Made by a program: the position numbers and the translations under genes. 64,000 nt of DNA. Origin: Bdellovibrionales bacterium GWB1_55_8. GTDB lineage: Bacteria > Bdellovibrionota > UBA1018. This document shows, in pieces, positions 390 to 18,841 of this stretch. The stretch covers positions 24,683-88,682 of the forward strand of contig MEPR01000035.1 of the NCBI GenBank assembly GCA_001769835.1, read 5' to 3'. The first letter of the stretch is position 1. Each line of letters starts with the position of its first letter. The notes under the pieces are model-generated. The model had not been told where the DNA came from. It worked only from the letters and a program-made list of their open reading frames with translations, and made no database searches.

Positions 390-790
390 CTGAGCTGATC
401 GATTCCGCGCAATGCAACCGTGACGCTTTCAACGCCTATCGATCCATTCTCAAGAAAGCAGGACGCTTGTCCTGCCGCATTCTCAGCGATTCCATGCACC
501 CGCTCATCAGTGCCGGCGAAACAGTGAACATCGCCCCCGTTCCGGAACTTGGCGAACTGCGACGGTTCGATATCATCGTATTTCTGTACGGAGACCGGTT
601 GTATTGCCATTATGTCTGGTCGATGTGGGAAAATCCGGTACAGATCCAGACACGTTCCCTGAAGGAATGCCGGTCGGATGATTTGCCCACCTTGCCTGAC
701 TTCCTTCTTGGAAAAGTCATAGATCAGAAGATCGGGATCCGGACGCGTATCTGGATAATTCTGCTGAACTGGTTCAAAGGAACGGCGTGA
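386..790 (+). CDS. S24/S26-like (LexA/signal-peptidase fold) peptidase, about 134 aa from TTG 386
   Basis: Motif SDSMHPLISAGETVNI followed by FDIIVF...GDRLY resembles the GDSMxP...GDxVxV...GDIVVF pattern of S24/S26 peptidases. A TTG start at 386-388 overlaps the upstream TGA (TTGA coupling). The track ORF 221..790 starts further upstream, but that N-terminal part carries no motif. Confidence 0.4.
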   Translation: MTELIDSAQCNRDAFNAYRSILKKAGRLSCRILSDSMHPLISAGETVNIAPVPELGELRRFDIIVFLYGDRLYCHYVWSMWENPVQIQTRSLKECRSDDLPTLPDFLLGKVIDQKIGIRTRIWIILLNWFKGTA

Positions 791-1808: not shown

Positions 1809-1830
1809 GATCTCACGGGTTCGATCCCGC

Positions 1831-3120
1831 TCAGAAATACGAGTCATACAATTCCCGATAAAGGTTGGAGTATCCTTCGGCCGCCCGGAACGGAGCTTTC
1901 GCATTCAAGCGATACGCACGCGCCAGCTGTTCAAATGCCTGGGTGAAACCTGAAAACGGTTCCCTTGAATCGCTCCCATTCCGCACCATATCGCCGATTT
2001 TTCGCCCCACTGATTCACACGAGCAAAACTCCCGCGCGCCCTCAGAAACGTTCCGCCGATCAGCATCCGTGCGATTCCGAGAAGCCATTGACGCCATTCC
2101 TTTGATGCAGGCTTTCAGCTCGGGTTGAATGCGGCGCCCCGATATCTGTACAGGGATGTGATCCACCGATCCCGGCCTCTGGCCACCGAAGGAGGAATAC
2201 CCCCCCCAATCTGACAGCAGCAACTGTTGTCCACAGCACCATGCCTCCGCGGGAGCCATTCCGAAGTCCTCGTCATTATGAGTGCTGAAGCTTACGAAGA
2301 CATCGGCCATCGCATAAAGATCCGCCAGACGCGCAGCCTCAAGATCTCCCAAATATTGAACGCGTTCACGATCCGGATCGGCCACCAATGTGTCGCGCAG
2401 CTCAATCAAATCAGCGGCGAGCAAACCGGTTAAAGGAGTCTTCCCGATATACGGGATTCCAAGATCGTCTATCGGCCCCGCGAGCCAGAGTCGTGCTTGA
2501 GGGTTGAATCGAAGATAGGCCGCAAAGGCCCTCATCAGAAGCAGCACGTTTTTTTGTAAACTCAGCCTGCCTGAGTAAAGCAAAATGGTTTCCGAAGTGG
2601 AAATGCCCTGCTCCTTCCGTAACCCTGAATAGGCGCCTTCCCGAAACGAAAACAAGGAGGAGTCCACCGGGAACGGAACCCAGGCAACCCGTCCAGAGAT
2701 GAACGACCGGAGCAGCTTTTGCTGCTTTTCTGATGCACCGACAAACACCGGCTGAGCGCTGCGAAACAACTCCTCCATCCGAAGCCACTCATTCGGATTG
2801 ATTGTGAAATCACCAAAAGCATGGATCACGAGTCTTGGCCAGGATTTCAGCTTTCTCGCAAGTAATTCGAACAGAACGGCCGGATGCGGCTTGTGGTCGA
2901 CAATTGCGATCAGGTCGGGCTTGAACGAGACAATGCCCTCCGCAAGCTGGTCCAAATCCAAGAAAGAAGCGGACTCTTCCATGTAAAACTGCCGGATCTC
3001 CGCTGAGGGGAACTCCAGTGAATAACTGTTGATCAGGTTTTGAGTGATGGATCGACAGCTCACCCAGTCCGAAGGGCGCTGCCGGCAAATGAGAGCGATT
3101 TTGCGCATAAACTTGTGCAA
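1831..3120 (-). CDS. glycosyltransferase, GT4 (GT-B fold, RfaG/WcaL-like)
   Basis: C-terminal GT1/GT4 signature: ILLYSGRLSLQKNVLLLMRAF ... DVFVSFSTHNDEDFGMAPAEAWCCG (E-x7-E motif). Confidence 0.7.
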   Translation of the reverse strand: MHKFMRKIALICRQRPSDWVSCRSITQNLINSYSLEFPSAEIRQFYMEESASFLDLDQLAEGIVSFKPDLIAIVDHKPHPAVLFELLARKLKSWPRLVIHAFGDFTINPNEWLRMEELFRSAQPVFVGASEKQQKLLRSFISGRVAWVPFPVDSSLFSFREGAYSGLRKEQGISTSETILLYSGRLSLQKNVLLLMRAFAAYLRFNPQARLWLAGPIDDLGIPYIGKTPLTGLLAADLIELRDTLVADPDRERVQYLGDLEAARLADLYAMADVFVSFSTHNDEDFGMAPAEAWCCGQQLLLSDWGGYSSFGGQRPGSVDHIPVQISGRRIQPELKACIKGMASMASRNRTDADRRNVSEGAREFCSCESVGRKIGDMVRNGSDSREPFSGFTQAFEQLARAYRLNAKAPFRAAEGYSNLYRELYDSYF

Positions 3121-3143
3121 TCGTAGTCTAATTGCAAATACTT

Positions 3144-3171
3144 TGGCAATGAAGTAACTTTCGCTTAAAAT
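3144..3171 (+). promoter_or_regulatory. sigma70-like promoter for the PqqD-led operon: TTGGCA-16 nt-TAAAAT
   Basis: TTGGCA at 3144-3149 and TAAAAT at 3166-3171, then GAGGG SD at 3172-3176 and ATG at 3181. Sits in the 60-bp gap between divergent GT4 and pqqD-like genes. Confidence 0.4.
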
Positions 3172-3180
3172 GAGGGCTCT

Positions 3181-3504
3181 ATGAGCGATACCACGCCTTT
3201 GAAAACCGGTTCCATTGAATCTGCCATTATTCCGGGAGCACGCCTGGAAATGAGCAAGGACCTCGTTGCGCGGAAAAACCAGGATGGAACCGTGATCGTC
3301 ATGAAGCTGGATGACAGCGCCGTTTTTTACAAGATTGACGGCATCGCCGCAGCGGTCTGGACCGAACTGGGGAACAAGCCGACCTTATCTGAGCTAGTAT
3401 CCAAATTCTCGGAACAGCATCCGAACCATCGCGATGAGATCGGTCGCGATGTGACAAACCTGATTACAGCGCTGCTCGGAAAACAGCTGATTGAAAAAAC
3501 CTGA
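3181..3504 (+). CDS. PqqD-family protein (RiPP recognition element-type peptide chaperone)
   Basis: 107 aa. VARKNQDGTVIVMKLDDSAVFYKIDGIAAAVWTELGNKPTLSELVSKFSEQ...EIGRDVTNLITALLGKQLIE is the canonical PqqD/RRE pattern (beta-strands then a wH-like helix, ending in a protein-binding helix). Confidence 0.7.
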   Translation: MSDTTPLKTGSIESAIIPGARLEMSKDLVARKNQDGTVIVMKLDDSAVFYKIDGIAAAVWTELGNKPTLSELVSKFSEQHPNHRDEIGRDVTNLITALLGKQLIEKT

Positions 3505-3519: not shown

Positions 3520-3975
3520 ATGAGCGATACCGACAAGACCAAGAAAACAGAACAAAAAGACTACTACTTCGGCGGCATCAAGGAATTCAACCTTGAGCAG
3601 ATCGAGACGGAAGTACTGAACGAAAGCATTTACCTCGACGTTTTTGCCGGATCGGATCTCCGTCTGAAGAAAAATGTTTTGCCGATCGAGGACGCATTGT
3701 CGAAGGTCCTGCAAATCGAGGGAGTTCGCTTTGAATGGAACCCTGAAGCGCCCGGGGCGCCGAAAAACGGAACGCCGCAAGCAGGGCTGATCGCGCAGGA
3801 CGTGGCTGCAGTGATGCCGGAACTTGTCCGGGCCGACCGCGATACCGGAATGCTCGCGGTTGAGTACAGCAAGCTCGTCAGCTATCTTGTCGAGGCGGTC
3901 AAAGATCTGAACGCCATCGTACTCAAACAGGAAGCCCGGATCCGGGCACTGGAAAAGCCTGATTCGCGCCACTGA
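3520..3975 (+). CDS. small protein made of a 44-aa N-terminal peptide plus a C-terminal intramolecular chaperone auto-processing domain (Peptidase S74 / tail-fibre CIMCD-like)
   Basis: Residues 45-150 read SDLRLKKNVLPIEDALSKVLQIEGVRFEWNP...AGLIAQDVAAVMPELV...LAVEYSKLVSYLVEAVKDLNAIVLKQEARIRALE. This matches the S74/CIMCD consensus (SDxRLK...Y.W...GfIAQEv..v.PE.V.......l.V.Y..L..lliEAiKeL...i..L) and includes the Ser-x4-Lys catalytic dyad (S45/K50). The gene sits 15 nt after pqqD and 8 nt before an rSAM gene. Confidence 0.7.
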   Translation: MSDTDKTKKTEQKDYYFGGIKEFNLEQIETEVLNESIYLDVFAGSDLRLKKNVLPIEDALSKVLQIEGVRFEWNPEAPGAPKNGTPQAGLIAQDVAAVMPELVRADRDTGMLAVEYSKLVSYLVEAVKDLNAIVLKQEARIRALEKPDSRH

Positions 3976-3983: not shown

Positions 3984-5072
3984 ATGGAGTCGCGATCTGC
4001 CGAGTCGACTAGAAAAAAACTACTGGTAAAGGGTTTATCCCCGAATTTCTGCCTGGTCCCGTTCACGACCTTGACCATTGAACCCGACGGCCACCTCGGC
4101 TGCTGCAGGCAGAAAGGGTCTCAGTTTTCGATAGGCAATCTTCATACGCAATCGCTGGCGGAAGCATGGAATGGCGATCCACTGAGAAGGTGGAGACGCG
4201 AGTTCCTAGAAGGCTCCCCGCAGACGTGCCGTAGCGAGATACGCCACTCCTCCTGCAATCTGTGTCCTGATTACAACTCGCTCCTTGACGCGATCGATCC
4301 ACGGGAAATTCAGCCCGGACCACCGCTCCGGCTCGGACTCAATCTCAATGGCAAGTGCAACCTGCGCTGCCGAATGTGTGTAGTCTGGAAGCAACCCAAC
4401 GGCATCTTCGATCGGCTTGACCTTCAGAGTTCCCTGGAGCCCCACATAAAGACGCTTCGCGAAGTCGAACTTCACTCAGGCGAGCCCTTTATCCAAAAGG
4501 ATACCTATCGTCTGATCAGCTGGATCAGCGATCATAATCCCGAATGCCTCTGGACGATCACCACCAACGCCCACTGGCGGCTTTCTGGGAGAATCGAAGA
4601 ACATCTGGATAAGATCCGATTCAAGAACCTGATCATAAGCATCGACAGCCTGGATGCGGCCACTTACGCAAAAATACGACAAGGCGGACGCCTCGGAACG
4701 GTCATGAAGAACGTCAACCTCCTGCGGGACTACAACTCCAGGAGAGTCGCCCGCGGCCAAGGCACAATGAACATCAGGGCAAACTTCCTTATTCAACAGG
4801 ATAACTGGTCTGAGCTGCCGCAGATCTTCGACTTTGAGAGGAAAACAGGAATCGATTGCTTCCGCACGTTTCTTTACGAACCGAGGAGGTTTTCGCTCCT
4901 CGACCTTCCCTCATCCGAACGGGAGGCGATTCTTACGTTCTATGAAACGGCGCTATCGCCTCAGCAAATTCGAGGCTCATTTCGAATATTGCTGCCCCTG
5001 ATCGACAGTCTTCCCAGAATCGATCAAGTGCTTCACTGGGAAAGGATGCAGCAGTCACTCAAGGGGAATTGA
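3984..5072 (+). CDS. radical SAM protein with N-terminal SPASM/twitch-like Cys-rich domain (paralog 1)
   Basis: N-terminus NFCLVPFTTLTIEPDGHLGCC...SLAEAWNGDPLRRWRREFLEG...C...CNLC is SPASM-like. The core motif CNLRCRMC (CxxxCxxC) follows at about residue 125. Shares the SGEPFIQKDTYRLI block with paralog 2. Confidence 0.75.
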   Translation: MESRSAESTRKKLLVKGLSPNFCLVPFTTLTIEPDGHLGCCRQKGSQFSIGNLHTQSLAEAWNGDPLRRWRREFLEGSPQTCRSEIRHSSCNLCPDYNSLLDAIDPREIQPGPPLRLGLNLNGKCNLRCRMCVVWKQPNGIFDRLDLQSSLEPHIKTLREVELHSGEPFIQKDTYRLISWISDHNPECLWTITTNAHWRLSGRIEEHLDKIRFKNLIISIDSLDAATYAKIRQGGRLGTVMKNVNLLRDYNSRRVARGQGTMNIRANFLIQQDNWSELPQIFDFERKTGIDCFRTFLYEPRRFSLLDLPSSEREAILTFYETALSPQQIRGSFRILLPLIDSLPRIDQVLHWERMQQSLKGN

Positions 5073-5835
5073 ACAGCTCGTACGCGAGCAATGCCTTCGG
5101 AACCGCCCCGTCGAATACAATGCGATTCTGATGTAAAACGATCGCCCGATTGCAGTGTTGAAGAATCAGCTCTCTCGAGTGACTGACAAAAATAAGCGCT
5201 TTCGATGCATGAATCACCTGCTGCATGCGCGCCATCATTTTTGCCTGAAAGAATTGATCGGCGTTGTCGTACGCCTCATCGAGAATCAGGAGATCACCGC
5301 TCCTCGCGGTCAAGACGGCCAGACAGAGCCGGCTCTTCATTCCCTGGCTGTAAGTTTCGTAAGGAGCATCCAAGAACGCACCGAGCTCGGAAAAAGCGAT
5401 CGCCTCCTCAACAACCTGCTGAACGCCAGCGCCGATCTCGTTCGGGTAGAGGAGCCGAACCAGCAGCTCCGCATTTTCCCGCCCTGTAAGTTCCGGAACA
5501 ATGCCAGCGGTGGTATTGAATATCGCGCGACAGACCCCGTTCACCTGAATGCTCCCGGTATTCGGGCGATACATGCCTGCGATACAGCGGCACAACGTGG
5601 TTTTTCCGCTTCCGTTCACCCCCAGAATTCCCAGGCGGTCTCCTGATCGGATCTGAAGATTGATGTCATTCAGGACGTGAAGCATTCTTCGCGGCTTCAA
5701 GAGTAATCGCACTGGATCGCTCACCGCGTCCACGAAGAGCTGCCGAAGGGATCCGTTGGCATAATGCCGGAGCCGAAAAGCCAGATTTACGCCCGAAAGA
5801 GTCGCTATATTGTCAGAGCTGGTGATAGAATTCAT
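5059..5835 (-). CDS. ABC transporter ATP-binding protein (Wzt/TagH/KpsT-like, ABC-2 type exporter ATPase)
   Basis: Walker A GVNGSGKTTL, signature YSQGMKSRL, Walker B LLILDEA. Overall resemblance to polysaccharide/teichoic-acid exporter ATPases. Overlaps the permease gene by 23 nt. Confidence 0.8.
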   Translation of the reverse strand: MNSITSSDNIATLSGVNLAFRLRHYANGSLRQLFVDAVSDPVRLLLKPRRMLHVLNDINLQIRSGDRLGILGVNGSGKTTLCRCIAGMYRPNTGSIQVNGVCRAIFNTTAGIVPELTGRENAELLVRLLYPNEIGAGVQQVVEEAIAFSELGAFLDAPYETYSQGMKSRLCLAVLTARSGDLLILDEAYDNADQFFQAKMMARMQQVIHASKALIFVSHSRELILQHCNRAIVLHQNRIVFDGAVPKALLAYELFNSP

Positions 5836-6565
5836 TTTTCATTCGCTTCCAATACGTGACAGCGGCCACCCCAAAGAGCGCGGCGCAGACAGTCGCCTTT
5901 GCCAACGATCCGATGAAACCTTCCGAGCTGAAGCTGTAGATGCAGATTCTCACCGGCTCGATGAGAACATAGATCGGGTTAATGCCAATCAACCACTGAT
6001 ACTGATCAGGGACAAATTCCTTCGGGTAAAAGATCGGAGTCACGAAGAAAAGAACGCCGATCATGAAATGCACCACATACCGAACATCCCTGTAAAAAAC
6101 GTTCAACATGGATAAAAACCAGAGCAAACCTCCTGTTCCAGCAAGAAGAGGCAACAAGGCGAGCGGAAGGAACCAGAGCCCCGTTTTTTGCACATCCGTG
6201 ATCAGAACAGTCGGGACCAGAATGATCGAGAAGGCGGCCACAAAATTGACGGCATTATCCAGCAAGGACGAGAAAACAAGCAGATAGGGCTTCACCTTCA
6301 ACGCGAGAAACACCTCGCGTGCCCCGACGGGAACCGCGATCCCCATTTCGAGCGAGGAAACAACGAATACCCAGGGCAGCAAACCACCCAACAGAAACAG
6401 TCCGTAATTCGGGATTCCGATTCGCAGTATTTCCTTGAAGGCCAGTGCTTGAGCTGCGTAGAGCACGATGGGACTGAGAATCACCCATACAAAGCCCGCA
6501 AAGGTCCGCCGATAGCGGGCCCGCATCTGCGCTTTGGTCATGAAAACAAGCAGGCTCCAGTTCAT
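5813..6565 (-). CDS. ABC-2 type transporter permease (Wzm/TagG/KpsM-like)
   Basis: 250 aa, six predicted TM segments, typical ABC-2 N-terminus (KAQMRARYRRTFAGFVWVILSP). Confidence 0.75.
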   Translation of the reverse strand: MNWSLLVFMTKAQMRARYRRTFAGFVWVILSPIVLYAAQALAFKEILRIGIPNYGLFLLGGLLPWVFVVSSLEMGIAVPVGAREVFLALKVKPYLLVFSSLLDNAVNFVAAFSIILVPTVLITDVQKTGLWFLPLALLPLLAGTGGLLWFLSMLNVFYRDVRYVVHFMIGVLFFVTPIFYPKEFVPDQYQWLIGINPIYVLIEPVRICIYSFSSEGFIGSLAKATVCAALFGVAAVTYWKRMKNEFYHQL

Positions 6566-6590
6566 TTATCGAGCTCCTCCAATGAGCTTC

Positions 6591-7382
6591 TCAGGAAACC
6601 ACCAGTATGTAATCGCATTCACTGCAAACGGAATGAGCGGCCCTCTTGCCTTCTCTCAGCCGGTTACGAAAGTCGATGTACTTCTGCGATGCCCAGATAT
6701 CTCCAAAGTGCTGTTCCTGGACATTACCCATGACATTCCGCTGAAGGAAATCCTGAAAACAGGGAAGGACGTTCCCCTTGACCGTAATCACTGACGTGGA
6801 AATCGGAACAAAACACGGTCTGTCAAGCGGTGGCGTCACCTTGAAAGAACCGAAGCCCTGAACAAGCCCCCCCCTGTTCGTGAAAATCAGGTCTTGATGG
6901 GAGTAATAGATGATCTTGCCTTTATCGGATTCCGACAAGCGCGCATAAGCATCCTCAAATTCCGCCAAGTCCGAACCTATATGCCGCGTGACGGTGAACT
7001 TATGAACGCCGAGGTCCAGGAGTTCCCGGAGCTTCTCCTGGTTCAACAGAGTTCCATTCGTGAAAATCTCGATCCTGCTTCGCGGAAGAATATCACGCGT
7101 GAGCGCCACAAATCGGGACAGGGAAGGCGACAACAACGGTTCATTGAAGAAATGATACGAGATGCGGCCTTCGTAATTCAGGTCGGAAAGCTGCTTCAGG
7201 ATTCCAAGAAAGAGCGTGTCTTCCATCGCGCCGCGCTCCGGCCTCTCGAAACTGGAATTCGGGCAATAAGGGCACCTCCTATTGCAGTCACTTCCAATCT
7301 CGATCTCGACCGCGAGTGGCGGCTTGAGTCCTTTAGGGTTCATCTTCCTCGCATTATCCGACATTTTCCGTGATTTCGCCAT
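6591..7382 (-). CDS. radical SAM protein with C-terminal twitch/SPASM-like domain (conventional order)
   Basis: EIEIGSDCNRRCPYCPNS (CxxxCxxC) near the N-terminus. C-terminal Cys pattern RPC...LPC...GNVQEQHFGDIWASQKY...CSEC. The start is taken at ATG 7382 (ATG 7364 also possible); the track's extension to 7604 has no support and would run into the divergent gene. Confidence 0.7.
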   Translation of the reverse strand: MAKSRKMSDNARKMNPKGLKPPLAVEIEIGSDCNRRCPYCPNSSFERPERGAMEDTLFLGILKQLSDLNYEGRISYHFFNEPLLSPSLSRFVALTRDILPRSRIEIFTNGTLLNQEKLRELLDLGVHKFTVTRHIGSDLAEFEDAYARLSESDKGKIIYYSHQDLIFTNRGGLVQGFGSFKVTPPLDRPCFVPISTSVITVKGNVLPCFQDFLQRNVMGNVQEQHFGDIWASQKYIDFRNRLREGKRAAHSVCSECDYILVVS

Positions 7383-7453
7383 GGACTGCTCACAAATGGC
7401 ACCTTTACTGAATCGGACTGGACGGGCACCCGGCACACCCATAGAATCTCTGC

Positions 7454-8551
7454 GTGAAACCTCAGCTGACCCCGGGAGAAATCCTCGAAATCTACAGGAA
7501 GAAGGGACTTCCGGAAAACTTCTGCCCGGTGCCTTTTTCCACTCTGCTTTTTGAGGCGAACGGGAATGTCTGCATGTGCCGCAGAAAGGGTTCGGAGTTC
7601 GCAATCGGCAACATCCAGGAGCAGGACTACCTTGAAATCTGGAACGGGGAAAAGCTGAAGAACATACGCGCCGAGTTTTTGACCGGCAGGCTTCGCACCT
7701 GCGCCGTTGAAGTCGAGCGCGACCATTGTAATCTCGATGCCAACAATGCCGACTCCCTTCCTTTCATCGAACTGGCGGTCGAGCAGCAGAGGCATCCTCT
7801 CCGCATAAGTCCCAACTTCAACGGACACTGCAATGTTCAGTGTGAGATGTGTCACATCTGGCGCTATCCGGACGGCTTGTATGACAAAATCGGTTTCTGG
7901 CGAACACTCGAGAACGACATCCTGCCGCACTTGCGCGAAATCGACACATTCTCAGGAGAGCCGTTCATCCAGAAAGACACCTACCGCCTCATCGAAATGG
8001 CCGCGCACGCGAATCCAAACATTTTCTGGAGCTTCACCACAAACGCGAACTGGCGCCTGAATGACACTATTCGGCGCTATCTCGACATGATCCAGGTGAA
8101 AACATTCAACTTGAGCATTGATAGCGTCGATCCGGCCGTCTATGCCTCGATTCGCCGCGGAGGAAACCTGGACAAGGTCCTCATCAACTTCGACCTGCTC
8201 CAGCTTTACGAACAGGAAAGAATCGCGGCTGGAAAGAGCGCACTCGGACTTACCATCCATTCGGTTATTCAGCGATCGAACTGGAAAGGCATTCCGGCGC
8301 TCCTCACACTGAGAAAGCAGAGGAATGCGCGAATTCATCTGAAATGCCTTTTTGAGCCTCCGGAACTCTCGCTCATCGGGATGACGGCGGCGGAAAAGCG
8401 GCAAATTCTGGCATACCTGCTTGAATCGCTTGGCCGCGAGGAACTGATGATGACTGCTGCGCTCTGGAAAGTGCTGTTGAAGGATATTCCCAAATCAGAC
8501 AGGCTGGAATTAATTCTGGAGTTTCAGAAGAAGACGGGAATCTTTCGCTGA
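7454..8551 (+). CDS. radical SAM protein with N-terminal SPASM/twitch-like domain (paralog 2)
   Basis: GTG start. NFCPVPFSTLLFEANGNVCMC...IGNIQEQDYLEIWNGEKLKNIRAEFLTG...C...C, then CNVQCEMC (CxxxCxxC). The SGEPFIQKDTYRLI block is identical to paralog 1. Confidence 0.75.
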   Translation: MKPQLTPGEILEIYRKKGLPENFCPVPFSTLLFEANGNVCMCRRKGSEFAIGNIQEQDYLEIWNGEKLKNIRAEFLTGRLRTCAVEVERDHCNLDANNADSLPFIELAVEQQRHPLRISPNFNGHCNVQCEMCHIWRYPDGLYDKIGFWRTLENDILPHLREIDTFSGEPFIQKDTYRLIEMAAHANPNIFWSFTTNANWRLNDTIRRYLDMIQVKTFNLSIDSVDPAVYASIRRGGNLDKVLINFDLLQLYEQERIAAGKSALGLTIHSVIQRSNWKGIPALLTLRKQRNARIHLKCLFEPPELSLIGMTAAEKRQILAYLLESLGREELMMTAALWKVLLKDIPKSDRLELILEFQKKTGIFR

Positions 8552-8592
8552 TTGCAGATGTGCTCGCGTCGGCATTCTGATATTTTTTCCAC

Positions 8593-9957
8593 ATGCCACG
8601 ACAATTCCTCGAGCGCCGCACCCTCGCAATCGTGTCGGCCCTGGGTCTGCTCAGCGCTCTCTCACTCAGCCTGACTCTGCGCCCTCAGCCTGGCGGCGTG
8701 GGATCTTGCCACGAAATTCGTGCCGCGCGATATTTTGACAGCACAACCAAAAAGGTCCGCAGCCCTGCTAAAATTCTTGTCGAAGGCGGAAAAATTCAAC
8801 GCCACATCAGTACGCCACGATCTGAGCCTTGCAAAGTGATCGACCTACCGGACGCAACGCTATTGCCCGGCCTGATTGACACCCACACGCACTTATTCAT
8901 GCGCGATTCAGCCTATTACCGCGGTTTTTCAACGGAGCTTCTTTCCGTGGTCAAACACAGTGACGCCGAACGGTTGGCTTGGGGGAAGGAGAGCGCCCAA
9001 CAGCTTTTGTTTGCGGGAATCACGACGGTTCGCGATCTGGGTAATTCGGGATTATTCCTGGACGCGCAGTTCGAAAAATTCCTGAACAGCAATGGCGGGT
9101 TCGCGAGCCCCAGGATCATCTATTCGGGACCCGGTATCAGCGGAAGTGGCGGTCAGTTTCCGGAAAACACCCCCTTGGCCATCGTCCAGAAGGAGTACTT
9201 TCCCCTCCTGGAACCTGGCTTGGCCGCCGGAATAGTCGCCCGCTTAAACGAGAACGGCGCCACCTGGGTGAAAGTATTCGCTGACGGTGATCCAAATCCG
9301 GAAAAGATGGAACAAATCGTTCTCGAGTCAATTGTGCGCGAGGCGCGGAGGCTCGGAAAAAAAATCGCTGCGCACAGTACGGAAGACGCAACGGCCTTGC
9401 ATGCCGTTGCCGCGGGAGTCGACAGCATCGAGCATGGGTTTGGAATTTCGACCTCCACCCTGTCTCAAATGGCGAAAAAGGGTATTTTTCTGGTACCAAC
9501 CGATTTCAGTCGCAGGGTTTGTGACATCATTCGCATGAAAAATCCGGATCCTCAATACCAGGACCCCGGGCGGTACCTCCAAGAACGCGGAATACGCCTC
9601 AAGGAGGCGGTTCGACTGGGTGTTCCGGTTGCGTTCGGTTCCGATGCCTACTCTGATATGAGCGCCGAAGGCCTGAACATGGGCCAGGCAGCGAAAGAGG
9701 GCCTTTACGCTTACTGGGAAGAGGGCATGAATGCCCCGGACGTGCTTCACGCCGCAACATTGGGTTCCGCCGAACTTCTCGGGATGGCGGATCAACTCGG
9801 GACGCTGGAGGCCGGCTCGAGCGCGGACATCATCGCGATCAAAGGAGATCCATTGGAGGATCTCCGAAACCTTGATCAGGTGATCTTTGTCATGAAAGAA
9901 GGCACCGTGTTCACAAGTCCGGAAACAGTTTCAAGCGTGGCAAGCCATGGCCAATAA
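8593..9957 (+). CDS. amidohydrolase-family metal-dependent hydrolase, predicted secreted
   Basis: Hydrophobic N-terminus LAIVSALGLLSALSLS. Metal-binding start GLIDTHTHL, later HSTEDAT...AAGVDSIEHG and VAFGSDAYS motifs typical of the amidohydrolase TIM-barrel superfamily. The stop overlaps the next start (ATGGCCAATAA). Confidence 0.7.
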   Translation: MPRQFLERRTLAIVSALGLLSALSLSLTLRPQPGGVGSCHEIRAARYFDSTTKKVRSPAKILVEGGKIQRHISTPRSEPCKVIDLPDATLLPGLIDTHTHLFMRDSAYYRGFSTELLSVVKHSDAERLAWGKESAQQLLFAGITTVRDLGNSGLFLDAQFEKFLNSNGGFASPRIIYSGPGISGSGGQFPENTPLAIVQKEYFPLLEPGLAAGIVARLNENGATWVKVFADGDPNPEKMEQIVLESIVREARRLGKKIAAHSTEDATALHAVAAGVDSIEHGFGISTSTLSQMAKKGIFLVPTDFSRRVCDIIRMKNPDPQYQDPGRYLQERGIRLKEAVRLGVPVAFGSDAYSDMSAEGLNMGQAAKEGLYAYWEEGMNAPDVLHAATLGSAELLGMADQLGTLEAGSSADIIAIKGDPLEDLRNLDQVIFVMKEGTVFTSPETVSSVASHGQ

Positions 9958-11275
9958 CGACCGCCAGGACAATGTCACCCGGAAGCTCAGCCAGGTCTCT
10001 CCGTGCTTTTGCCTGGCCAAGTGGCTTCAGGTCACCATCGATATCGTCCATGGGACGACTCACAGCTGTCATCACCCTGCGCGCCACCCCATCCCGCTTC
10101 AGGAGCTCCAATCGAACTTGCATGCCCTTCACAATACGAACTTCAAAAAGCAGCAGCGAAAAGCCATGCTCGAGGGGCATCGCCCTGCCGAGTGCGTTTA
10201 TTGCTGGGACATTGAAGACGCAGGTTCTGCCTATTCCGATCGGATCGTGAAATCCTCCGACCCCTGGGCTCTGCCTTTTCTTGATGAAATAAAATCTCTT
10301 CCCTGGGATGCGGATGTCCTCCCAACCTACCTCGAAGTGATGCTCGACGATCGCTGCAATCTCTCATGCGCCTACTGCATGGCCGACATCAGCAGTTCCA
10401 TTGCCGCCGAGATGGCGAAATTCGGTCCTTACCCAGTCAGCGACAAGGGGCATCGGATGCCCACCCATCCCGTGCCGGACGACCCCAATCCCTACGTCGC
10501 CGCGTTTTGGAAATGGATCCCTGCGGTTTTACCGAATTTGAAAGTACTGAGGGTCACAGGGGGTGAGCCGCTTTTAAGCGGACGCCTTCAGGAATTGCTG
10601 ACGATCCTGCGTCAGGACAAGCACCCGGATCTCACGTTGATCATCAACTCCCATCTGAGCGTGGGTTCTCAAGCCCTCGAGTTATTTTTCGATCAGGTTG
10701 AAGACCTGTTGGAAACCCAAGCGATCGGCCACTTTGAACTCTACACCAGCCTGGATGCCGCTGGCCCCCCCGCTGAATACATTCGCTGCGGAATGGAGTA
10801 CCGAAAGGTCATGAACACCATTGCGACGGCAGCCAGACGTTTTCCAGAAGCAAAAGTGGTTGCCATGTGCGCCTTCAATCTGCTCTCTCTTTCCTCATTC
10901 GGATTGCTCCTTGCGGAAATATGCGCGCTGAAGCGGGAGCTACCGAACGTCTTTCTGGATACGGCATACCTGCGGAACCCACGGTACCTCTCCTCCAATC
11001 TGGCGACTGCCGGTCTGAAACGATCCGCGGCTGAAGCGATGGCCGGGTTCATCGGGAGCCCCCGGTCGTATACGAACCATGAGATCGCGAAAATCGAGAA
11101 CTCGCTGCGGTGGATGCAAAGCGAGCCCGGATCGACGGAGCTTGCGCGCGGAAGGCGGGATTTCCTGCTGTTCGTCTCCGAGTACGACCGCCGAAAGAAC
11201 AAGTCGTTCTTAGGTGTATTTCCGGAATACAGGGAGTTTTACCGGGAGTGCAAAAGGTCAGTTCTCACGACCTAA
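9947..11275 (+). CDS. radical SAM protein with N-terminal twitch/SPASM-like domain (paralog 3, 442 aa)
   Basis: N-terminal Cys cluster SPCFCLAKW...HSCHH...ECVYCWDIE. Core motif DDRCNLSCAYC (CxxxCxxC). Translationally coupled to the amidohydrolase gene. Confidence 0.75.
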   Translation: MANNDRQDNVTRKLSQVSPCFCLAKWLQVTIDIVHGTTHSCHHPARHPIPLQELQSNLHALHNTNFKKQQRKAMLEGHRPAECVYCWDIEDAGSAYSDRIVKSSDPWALPFLDEIKSLPWDADVLPTYLEVMLDDRCNLSCAYCMADISSSIAAEMAKFGPYPVSDKGHRMPTHPVPDDPNPYVAAFWKWIPAVLPNLKVLRVTGGEPLLSGRLQELLTILRQDKHPDLTLIINSHLSVGSQALELFFDQVEDLLETQAIGHFELYTSLDAAGPPAEYIRCGMEYRKVMNTIATAARRFPEAKVVAMCAFNLLSLSSFGLLLAEICALKRELPNVFLDTAYLRNPRYLSSNLATAGLKRSAAEAMAGFIGSPRSYTNHEIAKIENSLRWMQSEPGSTELARGRRDFLLFVSEYDRRKNKSFLGVFPEYREFYRECKRSVLTT

Positions 11276-11392: not shown

Positions 11393-12205
11393 ATGAAAAA
11401 GAAACTACCTGGACTTGTCAATAATGCGGGTTTTTCGCTCGTTGAAGTCATGGTCGCCGCCGGGGTTTTGGGCGTCGTGACGATGGGATCGATGCAGTTG
11501 ATGAACACCATGAGCGATGGTCAAAGACGAATGTGGCAGATGCTGAATCTCACTGACGCCATTGCCGAAGTCCAGAACGCTGTGCGCAATCAAGAGACCT
11601 GCCTAGCGACTCTGAACCCCGCTGGTCCTCCGATACTCATCTCTACAACTGGTGGAGCCAGCAACTTCACAGTCCTGCGAAGGGCGGACGGCACGGCTTT
11701 AGTCACGGCGCCTACCGAATACGGAACGGGCGCAGGGCGAATTCGCGTGGACGTTTTCCAACTTACGAGCACCGGTCCAAACAACGTCGGACAAGCAAAA
11801 ACCGCCTCTGTCGTACTCCGCTATAGAAAGCGAGAGGGCGCGGTTTGGGGCGCGCAGTTAGTGAGAGACATCCCAATTAAGGTGATTCCGACTGCCGCCA
11901 ATCGAGTATCGCGTTGCTACTTATCGGATATGTCGGGGCCGGCATGCGACGCTTTGGGCGGCGACTTCGATGAACTCACCGGCCGCTGCACCACCATCGA
12001 CCTCTCCTTGCAGGCAGGCGCAGACCTGAGACTTCCGGCCGACGGCGAGATTTGCCGAGGAGGCGTCTGCCAGACTGTCTTCAATTCAAATCAGACCTGC
12101 CCATGGGGCTCCATGAACGCAAGATGTGTTAACGTCGTGGGCATTTCCCCAGGAGGTACCCTCATGTGTGGAGCCGCGCCGGCAGGAACAGCGTGCACCC
12201 CCTGA
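11393..12205 (+). CDS. type IV pilin-like protein (prepilin-type N-terminal cleavage/methylation domain) with a Cys-rich C-terminal region
   Basis: MKKKLPGLVNNAG|FSLVEVMVAAGVLGVV is the class-III signal with G-1/F+1/E+5. The mature protein is about 257 aa. The last 95 aa contain 11 Cys together with many Asp/Glu/Gly. Confidence 0.7.
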   Translation: MKKKLPGLVNNAGFSLVEVMVAAGVLGVVTMGSMQLMNTMSDGQRRMWQMLNLTDAIAEVQNAVRNQETCLATLNPAGPPILISTTGGASNFTVLRRADGTALVTAPTEYGTGAGRIRVDVFQLTSTGPNNVGQAKTASVVLRYRKREGAVWGAQLVRDIPIKVIPTAANRVSRCYLSDMSGPACDALGGDFDELTGRCTTIDLSLQAGADLRLPADGEICRGGVCQTVFNSNQTCPWGSMNARCVNVVGISPGGTLMCGAAPAGTACTP

Positions 12206-13605
12206 TACGCCGCGGTTTGCCTCGCGGTCGACCGAGCTGGAACGTTTTTGTTTTGATTTTTCTGTCAGTGATCGGAGCACTCGTTTACGGGCAGTCGCTC
12301 GGCTTCGGGTTCTTCATCTTTGATGATGCGGTTCACATCACACTGAATCCGCGATTTCGACCGGTTTCGCCCGGTAACCTGTGGTGGATCTGGACACATT
12401 CACTGATGTCGGTGACGTATACCTTCTGGGCTTTCCTTGCGTCCCTCTTCGGGACGGCAAATCCTGTCCCTTACCGGGTCGCGAATCTCGGATTGCATAT
12501 CCTGAACTCTTATCTGGTCTTCAACTGGATCAGAACTGTCCTGGAGCAGCTTCATAAAACAGGTGAACAGAAGAAACTGACCCTGGCTGCCTTTCTAGCT
12601 GGTTTCATTTTCCTCGCTCATCCTGTTCACGTTGAAAACGTAGCCTGGATTTCATCGACCAAGGATCTCCTCAGCTTCTTTTTTGGGATGATTTCGTTTC
12701 ATTTTTATTTTCGCTCCAGAAAAGTCATTGGCGATACGTTCGAGTTAAAAAACGTTTTCTGGACTTACGTGTTTTTCCTGGCTGCAGTCCTTTCCAAACC
12801 AGCTGCCGCGATTCTGCCGCTCCTCTATATCTGGCTTGACCGGGTTCTTTTCGCGCGCCAGGTACAGAAGTCCATGCTCGAGTACTCCATCGCGGCAATC
12901 GCTTCCGCATTTGCCGTGCATGCCTATCTCCGCGTCGTTCCCATGAGTAATCTCGGATTCGTTCCAGATTTGGGCTGGCGCGCCCTGCTTTCACTGGACG
13001 CTCTCGGATTTTACCTCGCGAAGCTTTTGCTTCCATTCGAATACTACTTTGATTACGGTCGCACTCCGCTTGAAGTGATTCGTCAGTTCGCGCTGAACCC
13101 AGCGGCCCAGGCGCTGACAGTCATTGCGAGCTCGCTCGTGGTCGCCGGCTTCGTGTTGTCTTATTTTCGAAAAAATCTGCAAGGCGTCCATGTCGCACTG
13201 GGCGTGATCATTCTCGGACTGCTGCCTTACCTGGGGCTGATCCCCTTCGCCTTTCAAAATCTGTCCTCGGTCGCCGATCGTTATCTCTATTTTCCCTCGC
13301 TTGGGCTCTCACTGGCAGCATCGCTGGCCTATTTGCATGCGAGTCGCCCACGCGCCGCTCTGGTGATCGCAGGAACATTCGGGATTTTCCTGAGCATCCA
13401 AACAGTCCTGCAAACCTCTACCTGGAAATCCTCCATCAGCGTTCTGTCGCATTCTGTAGCGAGGAACCCATCCAGCCCCCATTCACGCAAAGCGCTTGCA
13501 CATGCATTGTTCGCAAGGGGACTTGTGGAGGAAGCCATGAACGAGATGAAGGTCTTGGAACTGTTGAAGGCTGAACGACTGAACGAGTCTTCGAATTCCG
13601 AATAA
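12166..13605 (+). CDS. GT-C-fold membrane glycosyltransferase-like protein (TMTC/PMT/DUF1736-like) with C-terminal TPR-like tail
   Basis: About 10 TM segments. The conserved first-loop motif FIFDDAVHI follows TM1, as in TMTC/PMT-type O-mannosyltransferases. The soluble C-terminus ARNPSSPHSRKALAHALFARGLVEEAMNEMKVLE is TPR-like. The track start at 12166 (GTG) overlaps the pilin gene by 40 nt, so the true start may lie downstream. Confidence 0.5.
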   Translation: MWSRAGRNSVHPLIRRGLPRGRPSWNVFVLIFLSVIGALVYGQSLGFGFFIFDDAVHITLNPRFRPVSPGNLWWIWTHSLMSVTYTFWAFLASLFGTANPVPYRVANLGLHILNSYLVFNWIRTVLEQLHKTGEQKKLTLAAFLAGFIFLAHPVHVENVAWISSTKDLLSFFFGMISFHFYFRSRKVIGDTFELKNVFWTYVFFLAAVLSKPAAAILPLLYIWLDRVLFARQVQKSMLEYSIAAIASAFAVHAYLRVVPMSNLGFVPDLGWRALLSLDALGFYLAKLLLPFEYYFDYGRTPLEVIRQFALNPAAQALTVIASSLVVAGFVLSYFRKNLQGVHVALGVIILGLLPYLGLIPFAFQNLSSVADRYLYFPSLGLSLAASLAYLHASRPRAALVIAGTFGIFLSIQTVLQTSTWKSSISVLSHSVARNPSSPHSRKALAHALFARGLVEEAMNEMKVLELLKAERLNESSNSE

Positions 13606-18771: not shown

Positions 18772-18794
18772 GATCAATTTTTTGCGCGGCATCA

Positions 18795-18822
18795 TTGACT
18801 TAGGAATTTGAGAACCCATTTT
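18795..18822 (+). promoter_or_regulatory. second sigma32-type promoter upstream of dnaK: TTGACT-14 nt-CCCATTTT
   Basis: TTGACT at 18795-18800 and aCCCATTTT at 18814-18822. The AGGAAG SD and the dnaK ATG at 18842 follow. Confidence 0.4.
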
Positions 18823-18841
18823 CAGTTGAAACGAGGAAGTT

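What the first reader, a model, noticed from the sequence alone, without database searches (positions are those of the whole stretch)
3984..11275. Four radical SAM genes within 7.3 kb: three paralogs with the SPASM/twitch-like domain moved to the N-terminus, plus one conventional rSAM-twitch
Paralogs 3984..5072, 7454..8551 and 9947..11275 all start with a Cys-rich SPASM-like module (C..PF..L.I...G...CC ... IW.G ... C ... C) and place the CxxxCxxC core only at about residue 125-135. This is the reverse of the usual rSAM-SPASM order. Paralogs 1 and 2 share an identical 14-aa block, SGEPFIQKDTYRLI. The underlying DNA differs at most synonymous positions, so the duplication is old and the block is under purifying selection. 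A fourth enzyme at 6591..7382 has the usual C-terminal twitch. Multiple auxiliary-cluster rSAMs concentrated around one RRE points to a multi-step crosslinking pathway.
Basis: partly seen in the sequence, partly recalled or inferred. Interest (0 to 1): 0.7.

Follow-up and report, generated by a model that had tools for sequence, protein, structure and literature searches.

The report
Radical SAM cluster with reversed domains
Three of four neighbouring radical SAM enzyme genes do carry their extra iron-sulfur domain at the front instead of the back, a layout already catalogued but never studied, and they lie in a gene cluster found so far only in predatory Bdellovibrio-like bacteria that probably makes a sugar-decorated, enzyme-modified peptide cut from a small self-cleaving protein.

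Summary
R1 (3984-5072), R2 (7454-8551) and R3 (9947-11275) have an N-terminal SPASM/twitch Cys domain and place CX3CX2C at residues 125, 126 and 137. R4 (6591-7382, minus strand) has the usual C-terminal twitch.

The architecture is already catalogued as NCBIfam NF033640 (N_Twi_rSAM). R3 passes its cut-off; R1 and R2 fall below it and belong to a sister clade. I found no paper on the family. R4 is 43% identical to BtrN, a sugar/aminocyclitol dehydrogenase, not a peptide cross-linker.

The genes belong to a larger cluster that recurs in Bdellovibrionota genomes. It holds PqqD, a 151-aa protein with a self-cleaving S74 domain, an S26-like peptidase, a Wzm/Wzt-type ABC exporter, several GT4 glycosyltransferases and an amidohydrolase. 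An aminotransferase and a carbamoyltransferase lie just left of the window.

The S74 protein sits directly upstream of R1-type genes in 18 of 33 cases. Its most conserved part is the 30 residues before the cleavage site. PqqD is often fused to it.

Best reading (about 0.45): the peptide released by self-cleavage is the PqqD-presented substrate of the N-twitch enzymes and is then glycosylated and exported. Main rival (about 0.3): a purely carbohydrate pathway.

The parts
494..790 (+). Small S26 (SipW/archaeal-type) signal-peptidase-like protein
   Evidence: Database hits are weak: TIGR02228 E 0.003 and Pfam Peptidase_S26 E 0.086. Fifteen homologues share S-D-S-M-x-P (the second Ser, Met and Pro invariant), an invariant His, and a T-R-S-x-K motif (Thr invariant). 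It lies next to Wzm, co-directional, in 16 of 24 loci. The gene start is taken from the public call in L084.
774..1904 (-). Conserved protein of unknown function (357-376 aa)
   Evidence: No Pfam or NCBIfam hit. Homologues occur in 26 of the 83 loci held, usually beside the cluster-specific GT4.
1831..3120 (-). GT4-family glycosyltransferase (cluster-specific orthologue)
   Evidence: Pfam Glycos_transf_1, E 7e-14. Orthologues score 230-400 bits in many loci.
3181..3504 (+). PqqD-family peptide chaperone (RRE)
   Evidence: PF05402 at 35 bits, cut-off 23.4. Weak hits to lasso-peptide PqqD families. The equivalent domain in the fusion homologue P0264 matches TbiB1-leader complexes 5v1u/5v1v with TM 0.8-0.85. 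It is adjacent to R3-type genes in 17 of 30 cases.
3520..3975 (+). 151-aa protein made of a conserved 44-aa N-terminal peptide (nt 3520-3651) plus a self-cleaving S74/ICA domain. This is the candidate substrate or precursor. The predicted cut is between G44 and S45.
   Evidence: PF13884 at 61.8 bits, cut-off 22. The fold of the fusion homologue's C-domain matches the MyRF ICA domain 7dc3. The segment Y.FG......LE.IE.EVL..S.YLDVFAG|SD...K is the best-conserved part of the protein, and the Ser and Lys positions are kept. It lies directly upstream of and co-directional with R1-type genes in 18 of 33 cases. PqqD is fused to its N-terminus in at least 6 distinct loci and in about a quarter of the listed database homologues.
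3984..5072 (+). R1: radical SAM enzyme with an N-terminal twitch domain (362 aa)
   Evidence: SPASM at residues 23-92, then Radical_SAM at 122-254. NF033640 scores 104 bits, below the cut-off of 170. Invariant Cys are C23, C41, C82 and C91 (C94 nearly invariant), plus C125, C129 and C132. The AF2 model has pLDDT 89.7 and pTM 0.88.
5059..5835 (-). Wzt/TagH-like ABC transporter ATPase
   Evidence: Best NCBIfam hits are galactan and teichoic-acid exporters, at 159 and 130 bits, both below their cut-offs. PF00005.
5813..6565 (-). ABC-2 (Wzm-like) permease
   Evidence: PF01061, E 5e-13. Weak hits to Wzm and KpsM.
6591..7382 (-). R4: BtrN-like radical SAM dehydrogenase with the usual C-terminal twitch
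   Evidence: PDB 4m7t BtrN, E 5.4e-69, 43% identity over 238 residues. Its Cys spacing C190-x17-C208-x44-C253-x2-C256 aligns with Cys residues of BtrN.
7454..8551 (+). R2: second N-terminal-twitch radical SAM enzyme (365 aa)
   Evidence: SPASM at 24-75, then Radical_SAM at 124-249. NF033640 scores 93 bits, below the cut-off. It is 38% identical to R1. It falls in a separate part of the tree from R1-type genes, and none of the neighbouring R2-type genes is preceded by S74.
8593..9957 (+). Amidohydrolase-superfamily hydrolase with a signal-peptide-like N-terminus
   Evidence: PF01979, E 1.6e-32. The best NCBIfam hit is Xaa-Pro dipeptidase NF051886 at 185 bits, below its cut-off of 500. The N-terminus MPRQFLERRTLAIVSALGLLSALSLSLTL is read from the sequence.
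9947..11275 (+). R3: bona fide N_Twi_rSAM family member (442 aa)
   Evidence: NF033640 at 255.6 bits, above the cut-off of 170, full length. Invariant Cys are C22, C41, C83 and C86 plus C137, C141 and C144 in 21 homologues.
11393..12205 (+). Type IV pilin-like protein with a Cys-rich C-terminal half
   Evidence: N_methyl motif PF07963, E 2e-5. TIGR02532. It pairs with the next gene in 6 of 8 loci.
12166..13605 (+). Hydrophobic 479-aa protein (probably multi-pass membrane) with a weak TPR-like C-terminus, function unknown
   Evidence: No significant Pfam or NCBIfam hit. Homologues occur in 11 loci. The multi-pass membrane character is my reading of the translated sequence. My idea that it is a GT-C-type glycosyltransferase comes from memory and was not tested.

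Best explanation
Shown: R1, R2 and R3 are radical SAM enzymes whose single auxiliary-cluster (twitch) domain lies N-terminal to the SAM-cleaving core. R3 belongs to NCBIfam NF033640. R1 and R2 belong to a sister clade whose labelled members are all Bdellovibrionota. R4 is a BtrN-type twitch dehydrogenase.

Shown: all four genes are part of a cluster of roughly 19-20 kb that recurs in Bdellovibrionota genomes. It contains a PqqD/RRE chaperone, a small protein with a self-cleaving S74/ICA domain, an S26-like peptidase, a Wzm/Wzt-type ABC-2 exporter, several GT4 glycosyltransferases and a probably secreted amidohydrolase. A DegT aminotransferase and a carbamoyltransferase lie just left of the window.

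Inferred mechanism:
1. The S74 protein trimerises and cuts itself at G44|S45. This frees a conserved peptide of about 44 residues ending in ...S-I-Y-L-D-V-F-A-G. In genomes where PqqD is fused, the released piece is a PqqD-peptide fusion.
2. PqqD binds the front half of that peptide (Y-x-F-G-G-I-K-E-F-N-L-E-x-I-E) as a leader. It presents the flexible rear half to the N-twitch enzymes. These have no RRE of their own, because the twitch domain occupies their N-terminus.
3. R1, R2 and R3 each carry out a radical modification of the peptide.
4. R4 with the aminotransferase (alcohol to ketone to amine), the carbamoyltransferase and the GT4s build and tailor an attached sugar moiety.
5. The product is exported by the ABC-2 transporter and trimmed by the S26-like peptidase and/or the amidohydrolase.

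Because the proposed core is nearly invariant, the product would resemble a conserved cofactor or surface molecule (as with PQQ or mycofactocin) more than a variable antibiotic.
For: Architecture and family. AF2 gives one confident compact model for R1 (pTM 0.88).

R4 as a BtrN homologue.

Cluster conservation: phmmer of the window's proteins against 83 loci held (78 of them genome loci) recovers the same gene set. Every taxonomically labelled locus is Bdellovibrionota, unclassified 'bacterium', or one old 'Deltaproteobacteria' label.

Linkage: S74 lies immediately upstream of and co-directional with an R1-type gene in 18 of 33 cases. PqqD lies next to an R3-type gene in 17 of 30 cases. The S26-like peptidase lies next to Wzm in 16 of 24 cases. 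Of 36 loci with full 10-kb flanks, 25 carry PqqD and/or S74. The order peptidase-Wzm-Wzt-S74-R1, all on one strand, recurs in Bacteriovoracaceae loci. Halobacteriovorax marinus SJ has R3 (BMS_3132), PqqD and S74 (BMS_3130) in a row on one strand.

Gene fusion: PqqD is fused to the N-terminus of the S74 protein in at least 6 distinct loci (phmmer E 1e-15 to 1e-23). About a quarter of the listed database homologues carry both Pfam domains, and more have the fusion length of 240-264 aa.

Substrate-like features: the roughly 30 residues before the cut site are the best-conserved part of the protein. The Ser and Lys positions of the S-D-x-x-x-K motif are kept. In the AF2 model of a fusion, the front half of the motif is ordered (pLDDT about 80, a strand followed by a helix) and the rear half is not (pLDDT about 50). 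The PqqD domain matches a leader-bound lasso RRE and the C-domain matches the MyRF ICA domain.

No other candidate: no other ORF of 20 aa or more fits any intergenic gap in the cluster.

Peptide-side enzymes: the amidohydrolase's best hit is a dipeptidase.

Sugar-side genes.
Against: No modification, binding or cleavage has been shown. Every link between enzyme and substrate rests on gene neighbourhood and fusion.

Eleven of the 36 full-flank loci have an R1/R2-type gene but no PqqD or S74 within 10 kb. One recurrent minimal arrangement is GT, BtrN-like, carbamoyltransferase and R1-type only (L001-L003 and L077).

N-twitch relatives occur in phages (RsoM2USA, KVP40) with no detectable PqqD. 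The architecture is therefore not tied to peptide substrates.

R4's closest characterised relative acts on a small aminocyclitol. The exporter's best matches are glycan exporters.

The proposed core has no Cys and is nearly invariant, which is unusual for RiPP cores.

I could not inspect model coordinates. It is therefore not shown that the motif strand docks on PqqD, or that the N-terminal twitch occupies the position of BtrN's twitch.
Confidence: 0.45

Rival explanations
1. Purely carbohydrate pathway. All four radical SAM enzymes tailor sugars or cyclitols of a surface glycan or an aminoglycoside-like glycoside. The glycan is built by the GT4s, aminated (R4 plus the DegT aminotransferase), carbamoylated, deacylated and exported by Wzm/Wzt. 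The PqqD-S74 protein is an accessory scaffold or the acceptor of the glycan, not a radical SAM substrate.
For: R4 is 43% identical to BtrN, with Cys residues aligned to BtrN's. A DegT aminotransferase and a carbamoyltransferase lie in the same cluster, and further DegT, epimerase and GT2 genes occur in H. marinus. The ABC pair's best matches are galactan and teichoic-acid exporters. Minimal clusters hold GT, BtrN-like, carbamoyltransferase and R1-type genes with no PqqD or S74 within 10 kb. Phage relatives of R1 and R3 lack a detectable PqqD.
Against: It does not explain the tight S74-to-R1 and PqqD-R3 adjacencies. It does not explain the PqqD-S74 fusions, the extreme conservation of the pre-cleavage peptide, or the peptidase at the head of the exporter-S74-R1 gene run. 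PqqD-family proteins are known only as peptide chaperones (established knowledge). No DOI synthase was seen within 10 kb.
Confidence: 0.3
2. Protein maturation. The N-twitch enzymes modify a folded protein of the cluster, such as the Cys-rich pilin-like protein (11393-12205) or the secreted amidohydrolase. This would parallel anaerobic sulfatase-maturating enzymes or the 'metalloenzyme maturase' SPASM families.
For: After NF033640, the next-best NCBIfam hits of R1 and R2 (and the top hits of R4) are TIGR04311 'putative metalloenzyme maturase' and TIGR04317 'tungsten cofactor oxidoreductase maturase', all far below their cut-offs. The pilin-like gene follows R3 after a 117-nt gap on the same strand. 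It recurs with its membrane partner downstream of R2-type genes in 8 loci.
Against: Those hits score 50-74 bits against cut-offs of 380-400 and reflect only the generic core. The pilin-like match between loci rests mainly on the N-terminal methylation motif (44-87 bits). Pilin-like genes are seen in 8 loci and the amidohydrolase in 14, against 35 loci for S74.
Confidence: 0.1
3. Classical RiPP. A short, unannotated precursor peptide is cross-linked stepwise by all four radical SAM enzymes, guided by the one RRE.
For: PqqD plus several SPASM/twitch enzymes in one cluster.
Against: No ORF of 20 aa or more fits any intergenic gap between 3121 and 11392. R4 is BtrN-like. The cluster is rich in sugar genes.
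Confidence: 0.05

Closest known systems
NCBIfam NF033640 'N_Twi_rSAM' (twitch domain-containing radical SAM protein)
   Same: The domain order is the same: an N-terminal four-Cys twitch followed by the CX3CX2C core. R3 matches the model full length above its cut-off. The source databases' own annotation names close relatives of R3 this way.
   Different: R1 and R2 score 104 and 93 bits against a cut-off of 170. They form a separate clade whose labelled members are all Bdellovibrionota. The family has a name but, as far as I could find, no described substrate or publication.
BtrN, the 2-deoxy-scyllo-inosamine dehydrogenase of butirosin biosynthesis (PDB 4m7t/4m7s)
   Same: R4 is 43% identical over 238 residues, of similar size, with a C-terminal twitch whose four Cys align with Cys of BtrN. 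R4 lies in the same cluster as a DegT-type aminotransferase, as BtrN does with BtrS (the BtrS pairing is from established knowledge).
   Different: No DOI synthase was seen within 10 kb, and the host is not an aminoglycoside producer. The substrate is unknown. R1, R2 and R3 share only the twitch and core modules with BtrN, in the opposite order.
PqqE/PqqD/PqqA and MftC/MftB/MftA(+MftF glycosyltransferase): cofactors derived from conserved peptides
   Same: A discrete PqqD-family chaperone sits beside auxiliary-cluster radical SAM enzymes. The candidate substrate is a highly conserved peptide. As in mycofactocin, glycosyltransferases lie in the same cluster (the pathway comparison is from established knowledge).
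   Different: The auxiliary domain is N-terminal rather than C-terminal. The candidate peptide carries a self-cleaving S74 domain and is sometimes fused to PqqD. An ABC-2 exporter is present. None of the NCBIfam models for PqqE, MftC or PqqD is met at its cut-off.
Peptidase S74 / intramolecular chaperone auto-processing (ICA) domains of phage tail spikes, MyRF and Bdellovibrio MAT fibres (PMC10769870)
   Same: The Pfam S74 match is above threshold. The predicted fold of the fusion relative matches the MyRF ICA domain. The Ser and Lys positions of the S-D-x-x-x-K motif are conserved.
   Different: The cargo is not a long trimeric fibre. It is only a 44-residue peptide, or a PqqD domain plus that peptide. 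The gene is embedded among radical SAM and sugar genes rather than fibre or tail genes.

Membership tests
NCBIfam NF033640 N_Twi_rSAM | Whole-protein score at or above the curated cut-off (170 bits) | tested here: met
   This row is for R3 only: 255.6 bits, model positions 2-398 of 398.
NCBIfam NF033640 N_Twi_rSAM (R1 and R2) | Whole-protein score at or above the curated cut-off (170 bits) | tested here: not met
   R1 scores 104.2 bits and R2 93.2 bits. They are homologous and share the architecture (hhalign probability 97.6%), but I file them as a sister clade, not as members.
NCBIfam NF033640 N_Twi_rSAM | Cys-rich twitch module N-terminal to the CX3CX2C motif | tested here: met
   CX3CX2C lies at residues 125, 126 and 137. 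Four N-terminal Cys are invariant in each clade. The N-terminal module of R1 aligns to the C-terminal twitch of R4.
SPASM/twitch radical SAM subfamily (PF13186 / TIGR04085) | SPASM-domain profile match above the gathering score | tested here: met
   R1 43.2, R2 44.4 and R4 57.6 bits against 21.5. R3 has no Pfam SPASM hit and is assigned only through NF033640.
SPASM/twitch radical SAM subfamily | Auxiliary domain C-terminal to the radical SAM core | tested here: not met
   It is N-terminal in R1, R2 and R3, and C-terminal only in R4.
SPASM/twitch radical SAM subfamily | Auxiliary [4Fe-4S] cluster actually bound (one for twitch, two for SPASM) | not testable with these tools
   Four or five conserved Cys suggest one cluster. 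Confirmation needs Fe/S analysis, EPR or Mossbauer spectroscopy.
BtrN-type radical SAM dehydrogenase (R4) | Full-length similarity to BtrN with the four auxiliary-cluster Cys in register | tested here: met
   E 5.4e-69, 43% identity, and C190, C208, C253 and C256 align with Cys of BtrN.
BtrN-type radical SAM dehydrogenase (R4) | Acts on 2-deoxy-scyllo-inosamine within a 2-deoxystreptamine pathway (DOI synthase nearby) | tested here: not met
   No DHQS-like or DOI-synthase Pfam family is listed within 10 kb in L084 or L004. An aminotransferase is present. The substrate itself is untestable here.
RRE-dependent RiPP pathway | A PqqD-like RRE is present | tested here: met
   PF05402 at 35 bits against 23.4. 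The fold of the fusion relative's PqqD domain matches leader-bound TbiB1.
RRE-dependent RiPP pathway | A precursor peptide gene next to the maturase, with a leader bound by the RRE | tested here: inconclusive
   The candidate is the S74 protein's N-terminal 44 residues, supported by adjacency (18 of 33), fusion to PqqD and an ordered/disordered split in AF2.
RRE-dependent RiPP pathway | The modified peptide product is demonstrated | not testable with these tools
   Needs co-expression and mass spectrometry.
Peptidase S74 / ICA domain | Profile match, fold, and the Ser and Lys positions at the cleavage site | tested here: met
   PF13884 at 61.8 bits against 22. MyRF ICA 7dc3, E 8e-5, probability 1.0. 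S and K are invariant in 53 fusion homologues and kept in at least 80% of 32 locus-derived sequences.
Peptidase S74 / ICA domain | Serves a long trimeric fibre or spike N-terminal to the cleavage site | tested here: not met
   Only 44 residues, or PqqD plus a linker plus the motif, precede the site.

The most novel reading that the evidence does not exclude
A new kind of ribosomal-peptide precursor. A conserved peptide of about 30-44 residues is fused at its C-terminus to an S74/ICA auto-protease that acts as a built-in, self-removing 'follower'. In many genomes it is also fused at its N-terminus to its own PqqD recognition domain. The peptide is modified by three ancient paralogues of N-terminal-twitch radical SAM enzymes, giving that uncharacterised family its first substrate. 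It is then glycosylated with a radical-SAM-tailored amino sugar and exported. The system has so far been found only in predatory Bdellovibrionota.
Probability: 0.3. Interest if true: 0.8.

Novelty: new variant of a known kind. Interest (0 to 1): 0.6.

Why it matters
The reversed twitch-then-core layout already has a database family name, but I could find no known substrate, structure or paper for it. This cluster offers a concrete, testable substrate candidate and partner proteins for three distinct clades of that family at once.

If the S74 protein is the substrate, the work would add a self-cleaving precursor type, and a precursor fused to its own recognition domain, to peptide natural-product biology. 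It would also link peptide and sugar radical chemistry in one pathway.

Every labelled relative of the cluster is from Bdellovibrionota, including cultured Halobacteriovorax marinus. The product may therefore matter for the predatory lifestyle or for the cell surface. Its absence from other phyla was not tested exhaustively.

If the carbohydrate rival is right, these would instead be new sugar-modifying radical SAM enzymes related to BtrN chemistry, which would still be useful to know.

Tried and rejected

2. The afdb50 fold library was not available.

3. BtrN substrate-binding residues. The BtrN structure paper is not held, so R4's active-site residues were not compared.

4. Literature. No open-access paper mentions an N-terminal SPASM or twitch domain, NF033640, or an S74 domain in a RiPP context.

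5. A phage parallel. KVP40 has a weakly GT-like gene, then a 97-aa ORF, then an N-twitch radical SAM gene. The 97-aa ORF shows no similarity to PqqD. The neighbours of the RsoM2USA homologue have no Pfam hits. I rejected this as support for a PqqD partnership.

6. A hidden small precursor. No ORF of 20 aa or more fits the intergenic gaps in the window's cluster. The 290-480-nt R3-R2 gap in Bacteriovoracaceae holds an S24/S26-like ORF of about 130 aa on the opposite strand, not a small peptide gene.

7. Promoter and terminator scans were no better than shuffled sequence.

8. The 479-aa membrane protein and the 376-aa protein gave no family assignment even at E up to 5.

Full report
SOURCE AND GENE MAP. 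R1, R3 and the S74 protein are each 100% identical to proteins of the groundwater MAG 'Bdellovibrionales bacterium GWB1_55_8'.

The region reads as follows:
- S26-like peptidase, about 494-790, plus strand
- conserved protein of unknown function, 774-1904, minus strand
- GT4 glycosyltransferase, 1831-3120, minus strand
- PqqD, 3181-3504, plus strand
- 151-aa S74-domain protein, 3520-3975, plus strand
- R1, 3984-5072, plus strand
- Wzt-like ATPase, 5059-5835, minus strand
- Wzm-like permease, 5813-6565, minus strand
- R4, 6591-7382, minus strand
- R2, 7454-8551, plus strand
- amidohydrolase, 8593-9957, plus strand
- R3, 9947-11275, plus strand
- pilin-like protein, 11393-12205, plus strand
- 479-aa membrane protein, 12166-13605, plus strand

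The parent contig shows that the cluster continues about 6 kb to the left of the window. There it holds a DegT-type aminotransferase, a carbamoyltransferase of the Carbam_trans_N/C type, and two more GT1-family glycosyltransferases.

THE OBSERVATION. It holds. CX3CX2C lies at residue 125 (R1), 126 (R2), 137 (R3) and 33 (R4). Pfam places SPASM before Radical_SAM in R1 and R2 and after it in R4.

A pairwise BLASTP shows the swap directly. The C-terminal twitch of R4 (190-258) aligns with R1 23-97 (E 2e-5). The N-terminal core of R4 (21-123) aligns with R1 113-209.

R3 is much more distant, at 19% identity to R1, and has no Pfam SPASM hit. The R1-family and R3-family profiles nevertheless align collinearly across both modules (hhalign probability 97.6%, E 3.6e-12).

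Each clade keeps four invariant N-terminal Cys. In R1 these are C23, C41, C82 and C91, with C94 nearly invariant; R2 has Asp at that fifth position. In R3 they are C22, C41, C83 and C86. The R3 spacing, x18-x41-x2, is close to R4's x17-x44-x2, and R4's four Cys align with Cys of BtrN. Four or five Cys argue for a one-cluster twitch rather than a two-cluster SPASM domain. That is an inference.

The AF2 model of R1 is confident and compact (pLDDT 89.7, pTM 0.88). Its N-terminal region has short beta-strands followed by helices, as expected for a twitch.

THE 14-RESIDUE BLOCK. It is identical in R1 and R2, with 9 of 42 nucleotides changed, all at third positions. Seven of its residues are invariant across 21 family members. 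It is therefore a functional motif that contains the G-E-P element. From general radical SAM knowledge this element contacts SAM.

Across the whole R1/R2 alignment, 48 of 127 identical residues use the same codon, against 50.2 expected by chance. Synonymous sites are saturated. R1-type and R2-type genes also fall in different parts of a tree of 83 sequences from many genomes. The paralogues are ancient.

FAMILY STATUS. The reversed order is the defining trait of NCBIfam NF033640, whose short name is N_Twi_rSAM. R3 is a member at 255.6 bits against a cut-off of 170. R1 (104 bits) and R2 (93 bits) are not. The source databases' own annotation names close relatives of R3 'twitch domain-containing radical SAM protein'.

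I found no open-access paper on the family and no close solved structure.

The architecture is not confined to this phylum. Ralstonia jumbo phage RsoM2USA encodes a protein 36% identical to R3 over 98% of its length. KVP40-like vibriophages encode one that aligns to R1 from residue 22, the first twitch Cys. Many predicted phage structures match the R1 model along most of its length.

R4. It is 43% identical to BtrN over 238 residues (E 5.4e-69), with all four auxiliary-cluster Cys aligned to Cys of BtrN. BtrN oxidises a secondary alcohol of an aminocyclitol to a ketone, which an aminotransferase then aminates (established knowledge). A DegT aminotransferase lies in the same cluster here. In a relative it sits directly beside the R4 orthologue. 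R4 is therefore most likely a sugar or cyclitol dehydrogenase, not a peptide cross-linker.

CONSERVATION OF THE CLUSTER. R1 has hundreds of homologues at 43-62% identity. Every taxonomically labelled one is from Bdellovibrionota: Bdellovibrionales, Bacteriovoracaceae, Halobacteriovorax or Oligoflexia.

I searched the window's proteins against the 83 loci held, of which 78 are genome loci. The same set recurs:
- GT4: 52 loci
- R3-type: 36
- S74: 35
- PqqD: 30
- R4-type: 30
- Wzt: 27
- Wzm: 26
- the unknown 376-aa protein: 26
- the S26-like peptidase: 24
- R2-type: 18
- amidohydrolase: 14
- the membrane protein: 11
- the pilin-like protein: 8

Many of these loci are truncated contigs, so the counts are lower bounds.

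Adjacency is specific:
- S74 is immediately upstream of and co-directional with an R1-type gene in 18 of 33 cases. No R2-type gene in the tree is preceded by S74.
- PqqD is next to an R3-type gene in 17 of 30 cases.
- The peptidase is next to Wzm in 16 of 24 cases.

In Bacteriovoracaceae loci the order peptidase-Wzm-Wzt-S74-R1, all on one strand, recurs. In Halobacteriovorax marinus SJ, R3 (BMS_3132), PqqD and S74 (BMS_3130) follow one another on one strand. They are surrounded by four further radical SAM genes, two DegT genes, GT1 and GT2 genes and an epimerase.

THE S74 PROTEIN AS CANDIDATE SUBSTRATE. Its C-terminal two thirds are an S74/ICA auto-processing domain. The evidence is Pfam at 61.8 bits and the match of the fusion relative's predicted fold to the MyRF ICA domain (27% identity, probability 1.0).

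The best-conserved part of the protein is not that domain. It is the 30 residues before the cleavage serine: Y.FG......LE.IE.EVL..S.YLDVFAG|SD...K. In 53 fusion homologues, Y, L, D, F, A, G, S, D and K are invariant. The Ser and Lys positions, known from endosialidase and MyRF as the catalytic dyad (established knowledge), are kept.

Self-cleavage would release residues 1-44 ending in ...YLDVFAG.

In at least 6 distinct loci, PqqD is fused to the N-terminus of this protein. About a quarter of the listed database homologues carry both Pfam domains, and more have the fusion length of 240-264 aa. In the window the two are adjacent separate genes.

In an AF2 model of one fusion, the PqqD and S74 domains are confident. 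The front half of the motif is ordered (pLDDT about 80, a strand I-K-E-F-N followed by a helix). The rear half, V-L-S-E-S-L-Y-L-D-V-F-A-G, has pLDDT about 50. This pattern is what a bound leader plus a flexible core would give. I could not see which strand the motif pairs with.

The PqqD domain's nearest solved fold is TbiB1, a lasso-peptide RRE crystallised with its leader (TM 0.8-0.85). From memory, the K-E-F-N-L-E stretch also resembles the F-N-L-D leader box of nisin. That is a lead, not a test.

No other small ORF fits anywhere in the cluster.

PUTTING IT TOGETHER. The cluster has two halves.

The peptide half consists of PqqD, the self-cleaving conserved peptide, three radical SAM enzymes that lack an RRE of their own, an S26-like peptidase with S-D-S-M-x-P and an invariant His, and a signal-peptide-bearing amidohydrolase whose best hit is a dipeptidase.

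The sugar half consists of three or four GT4-type enzymes, BtrN-like R4, an aminotransferase, a carbamoyltransferase, and an exporter most similar to glycan exporters.

The explanation that uses all parts is a glycosylated, radical-SAM-modified peptide that is exported. I give it about 0.45.

The main rival, at about 0.3, is that all the radical SAM enzymes act on sugars and that PqqD-S74 is an accessory or acceptor. Several findings support it:
- R4's identity as a BtrN homologue.
- 11 of 36 full-flank loci have neither PqqD nor S74.
- A recurrent minimal cluster holds only GT, BtrN-like, carbamoyltransferase and R1-type genes.
- Phage homologues have no detectable PqqD.

Protein maturation of the pilin-like protein or the amidohydrolase (about 0.1) and a classical small-precursor RiPP (about 0.05) are less likely.

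NOVELTY AND VERDICT. Three things appear to be undescribed. The first is the setting: a cluster seen so far only in Bdellovibrionota. The second is the pairing of N-twitch radical SAM enzymes with a PqqD chaperone. The third is an S74 self-cleaving mini-protein that is often fused to PqqD.

I rate it a new variant of a known kind, with interest 0.6. The value lies in a concrete experimental handle on an uncharacterised radical SAM family and a possible new precursor type.

Noticed in passing
window 16958-18088: A fifth radical SAM gene (PF04055, E 1e-24) lies directly upstream of grpE-dnaK-dnaJ (18163-21971). From memory this is the usual housekeeping position of HemW-like genes. It has no auxiliary domain hit and is unrelated to the cluster.
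   Followed up: partly
L084 1-6400 (the parent contig, left of window position 1): The cluster continues beyond the window's left edge. It holds a DegT aminotransferase, a Carbam_trans_N/C carbamoyltransferase and two GT1-family glycosyltransferases of about 500 aa. The same genes flank the orthologous cluster in L004.
   Followed up: partly
L087 6950-8371 (Ralstonia phage RsoM2USA gp349); L088 4965-6017 (Vibrio phage KVP40.0272): N-terminal-twitch radical SAM homologues occur in a jumbo phage (36% identity to R3 over 98% of its length) and in KVP40-like phages (25% identity to R1 from residue 22). Their neighbours are unannotated, and the 97-aa ORF upstream in KVP40 is not detectably PqqD.
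   Followed up: partly
L048, L049, L054, L055, L057, L059, L060, L068, L071: the gap between R3-type and R2-type genes, opposite strand: A conserved ORF of about 130 aa carries the motif V-H-D-[S/H/R]-M-[Y/F]-P-L. It looks like a second paralogue of the S24/S26-like peptidase, and it often lacks the catalytic Ser. It is absent from the window.
   Followed up: no
L004 18509-19102; L086 3944-4438: DUF6016 proteins recur beside related clusters in two distant genomes. In L004 the gene lies next to split transketolase-like genes. In L086 it lies next to an NAD-dependent epimerase and another radical SAM gene.
   Followed up: no
window 3520-3651 (residues 20-30 of the S74 protein): The stretch I-K-E-F-N-L-E-Q-I-E resembles, from memory, the F-N-L-D leader box that the nisin dehydratase RRE recognises. 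I did not test this.
   Followed up: no
window 11393-12205: The pilin-like protein has a prepilin N-terminal methylation motif and a C-terminal half with about ten Cys. It follows R3 after 117 nt and overlaps the start of the 479-aa membrane protein.
   Followed up: partly
window 24046-25512, 27773-29611, 33499-35400, 49559-49648: Unrelated neighbours: FliD flagellar cap protein, a GT9-like protein, a clostripain-family C11 peptidase, and tRNA-Ser(GGA).
   Followed up: no
window 3143-3171: The best sigma-70-like match in the region (10 of 12 positions) lies just before PqqD, which would fit a PqqD-S74-R1 transcript. The number of such sites is no higher than in shuffled sequence, so this is not evidence.
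   Followed up: no
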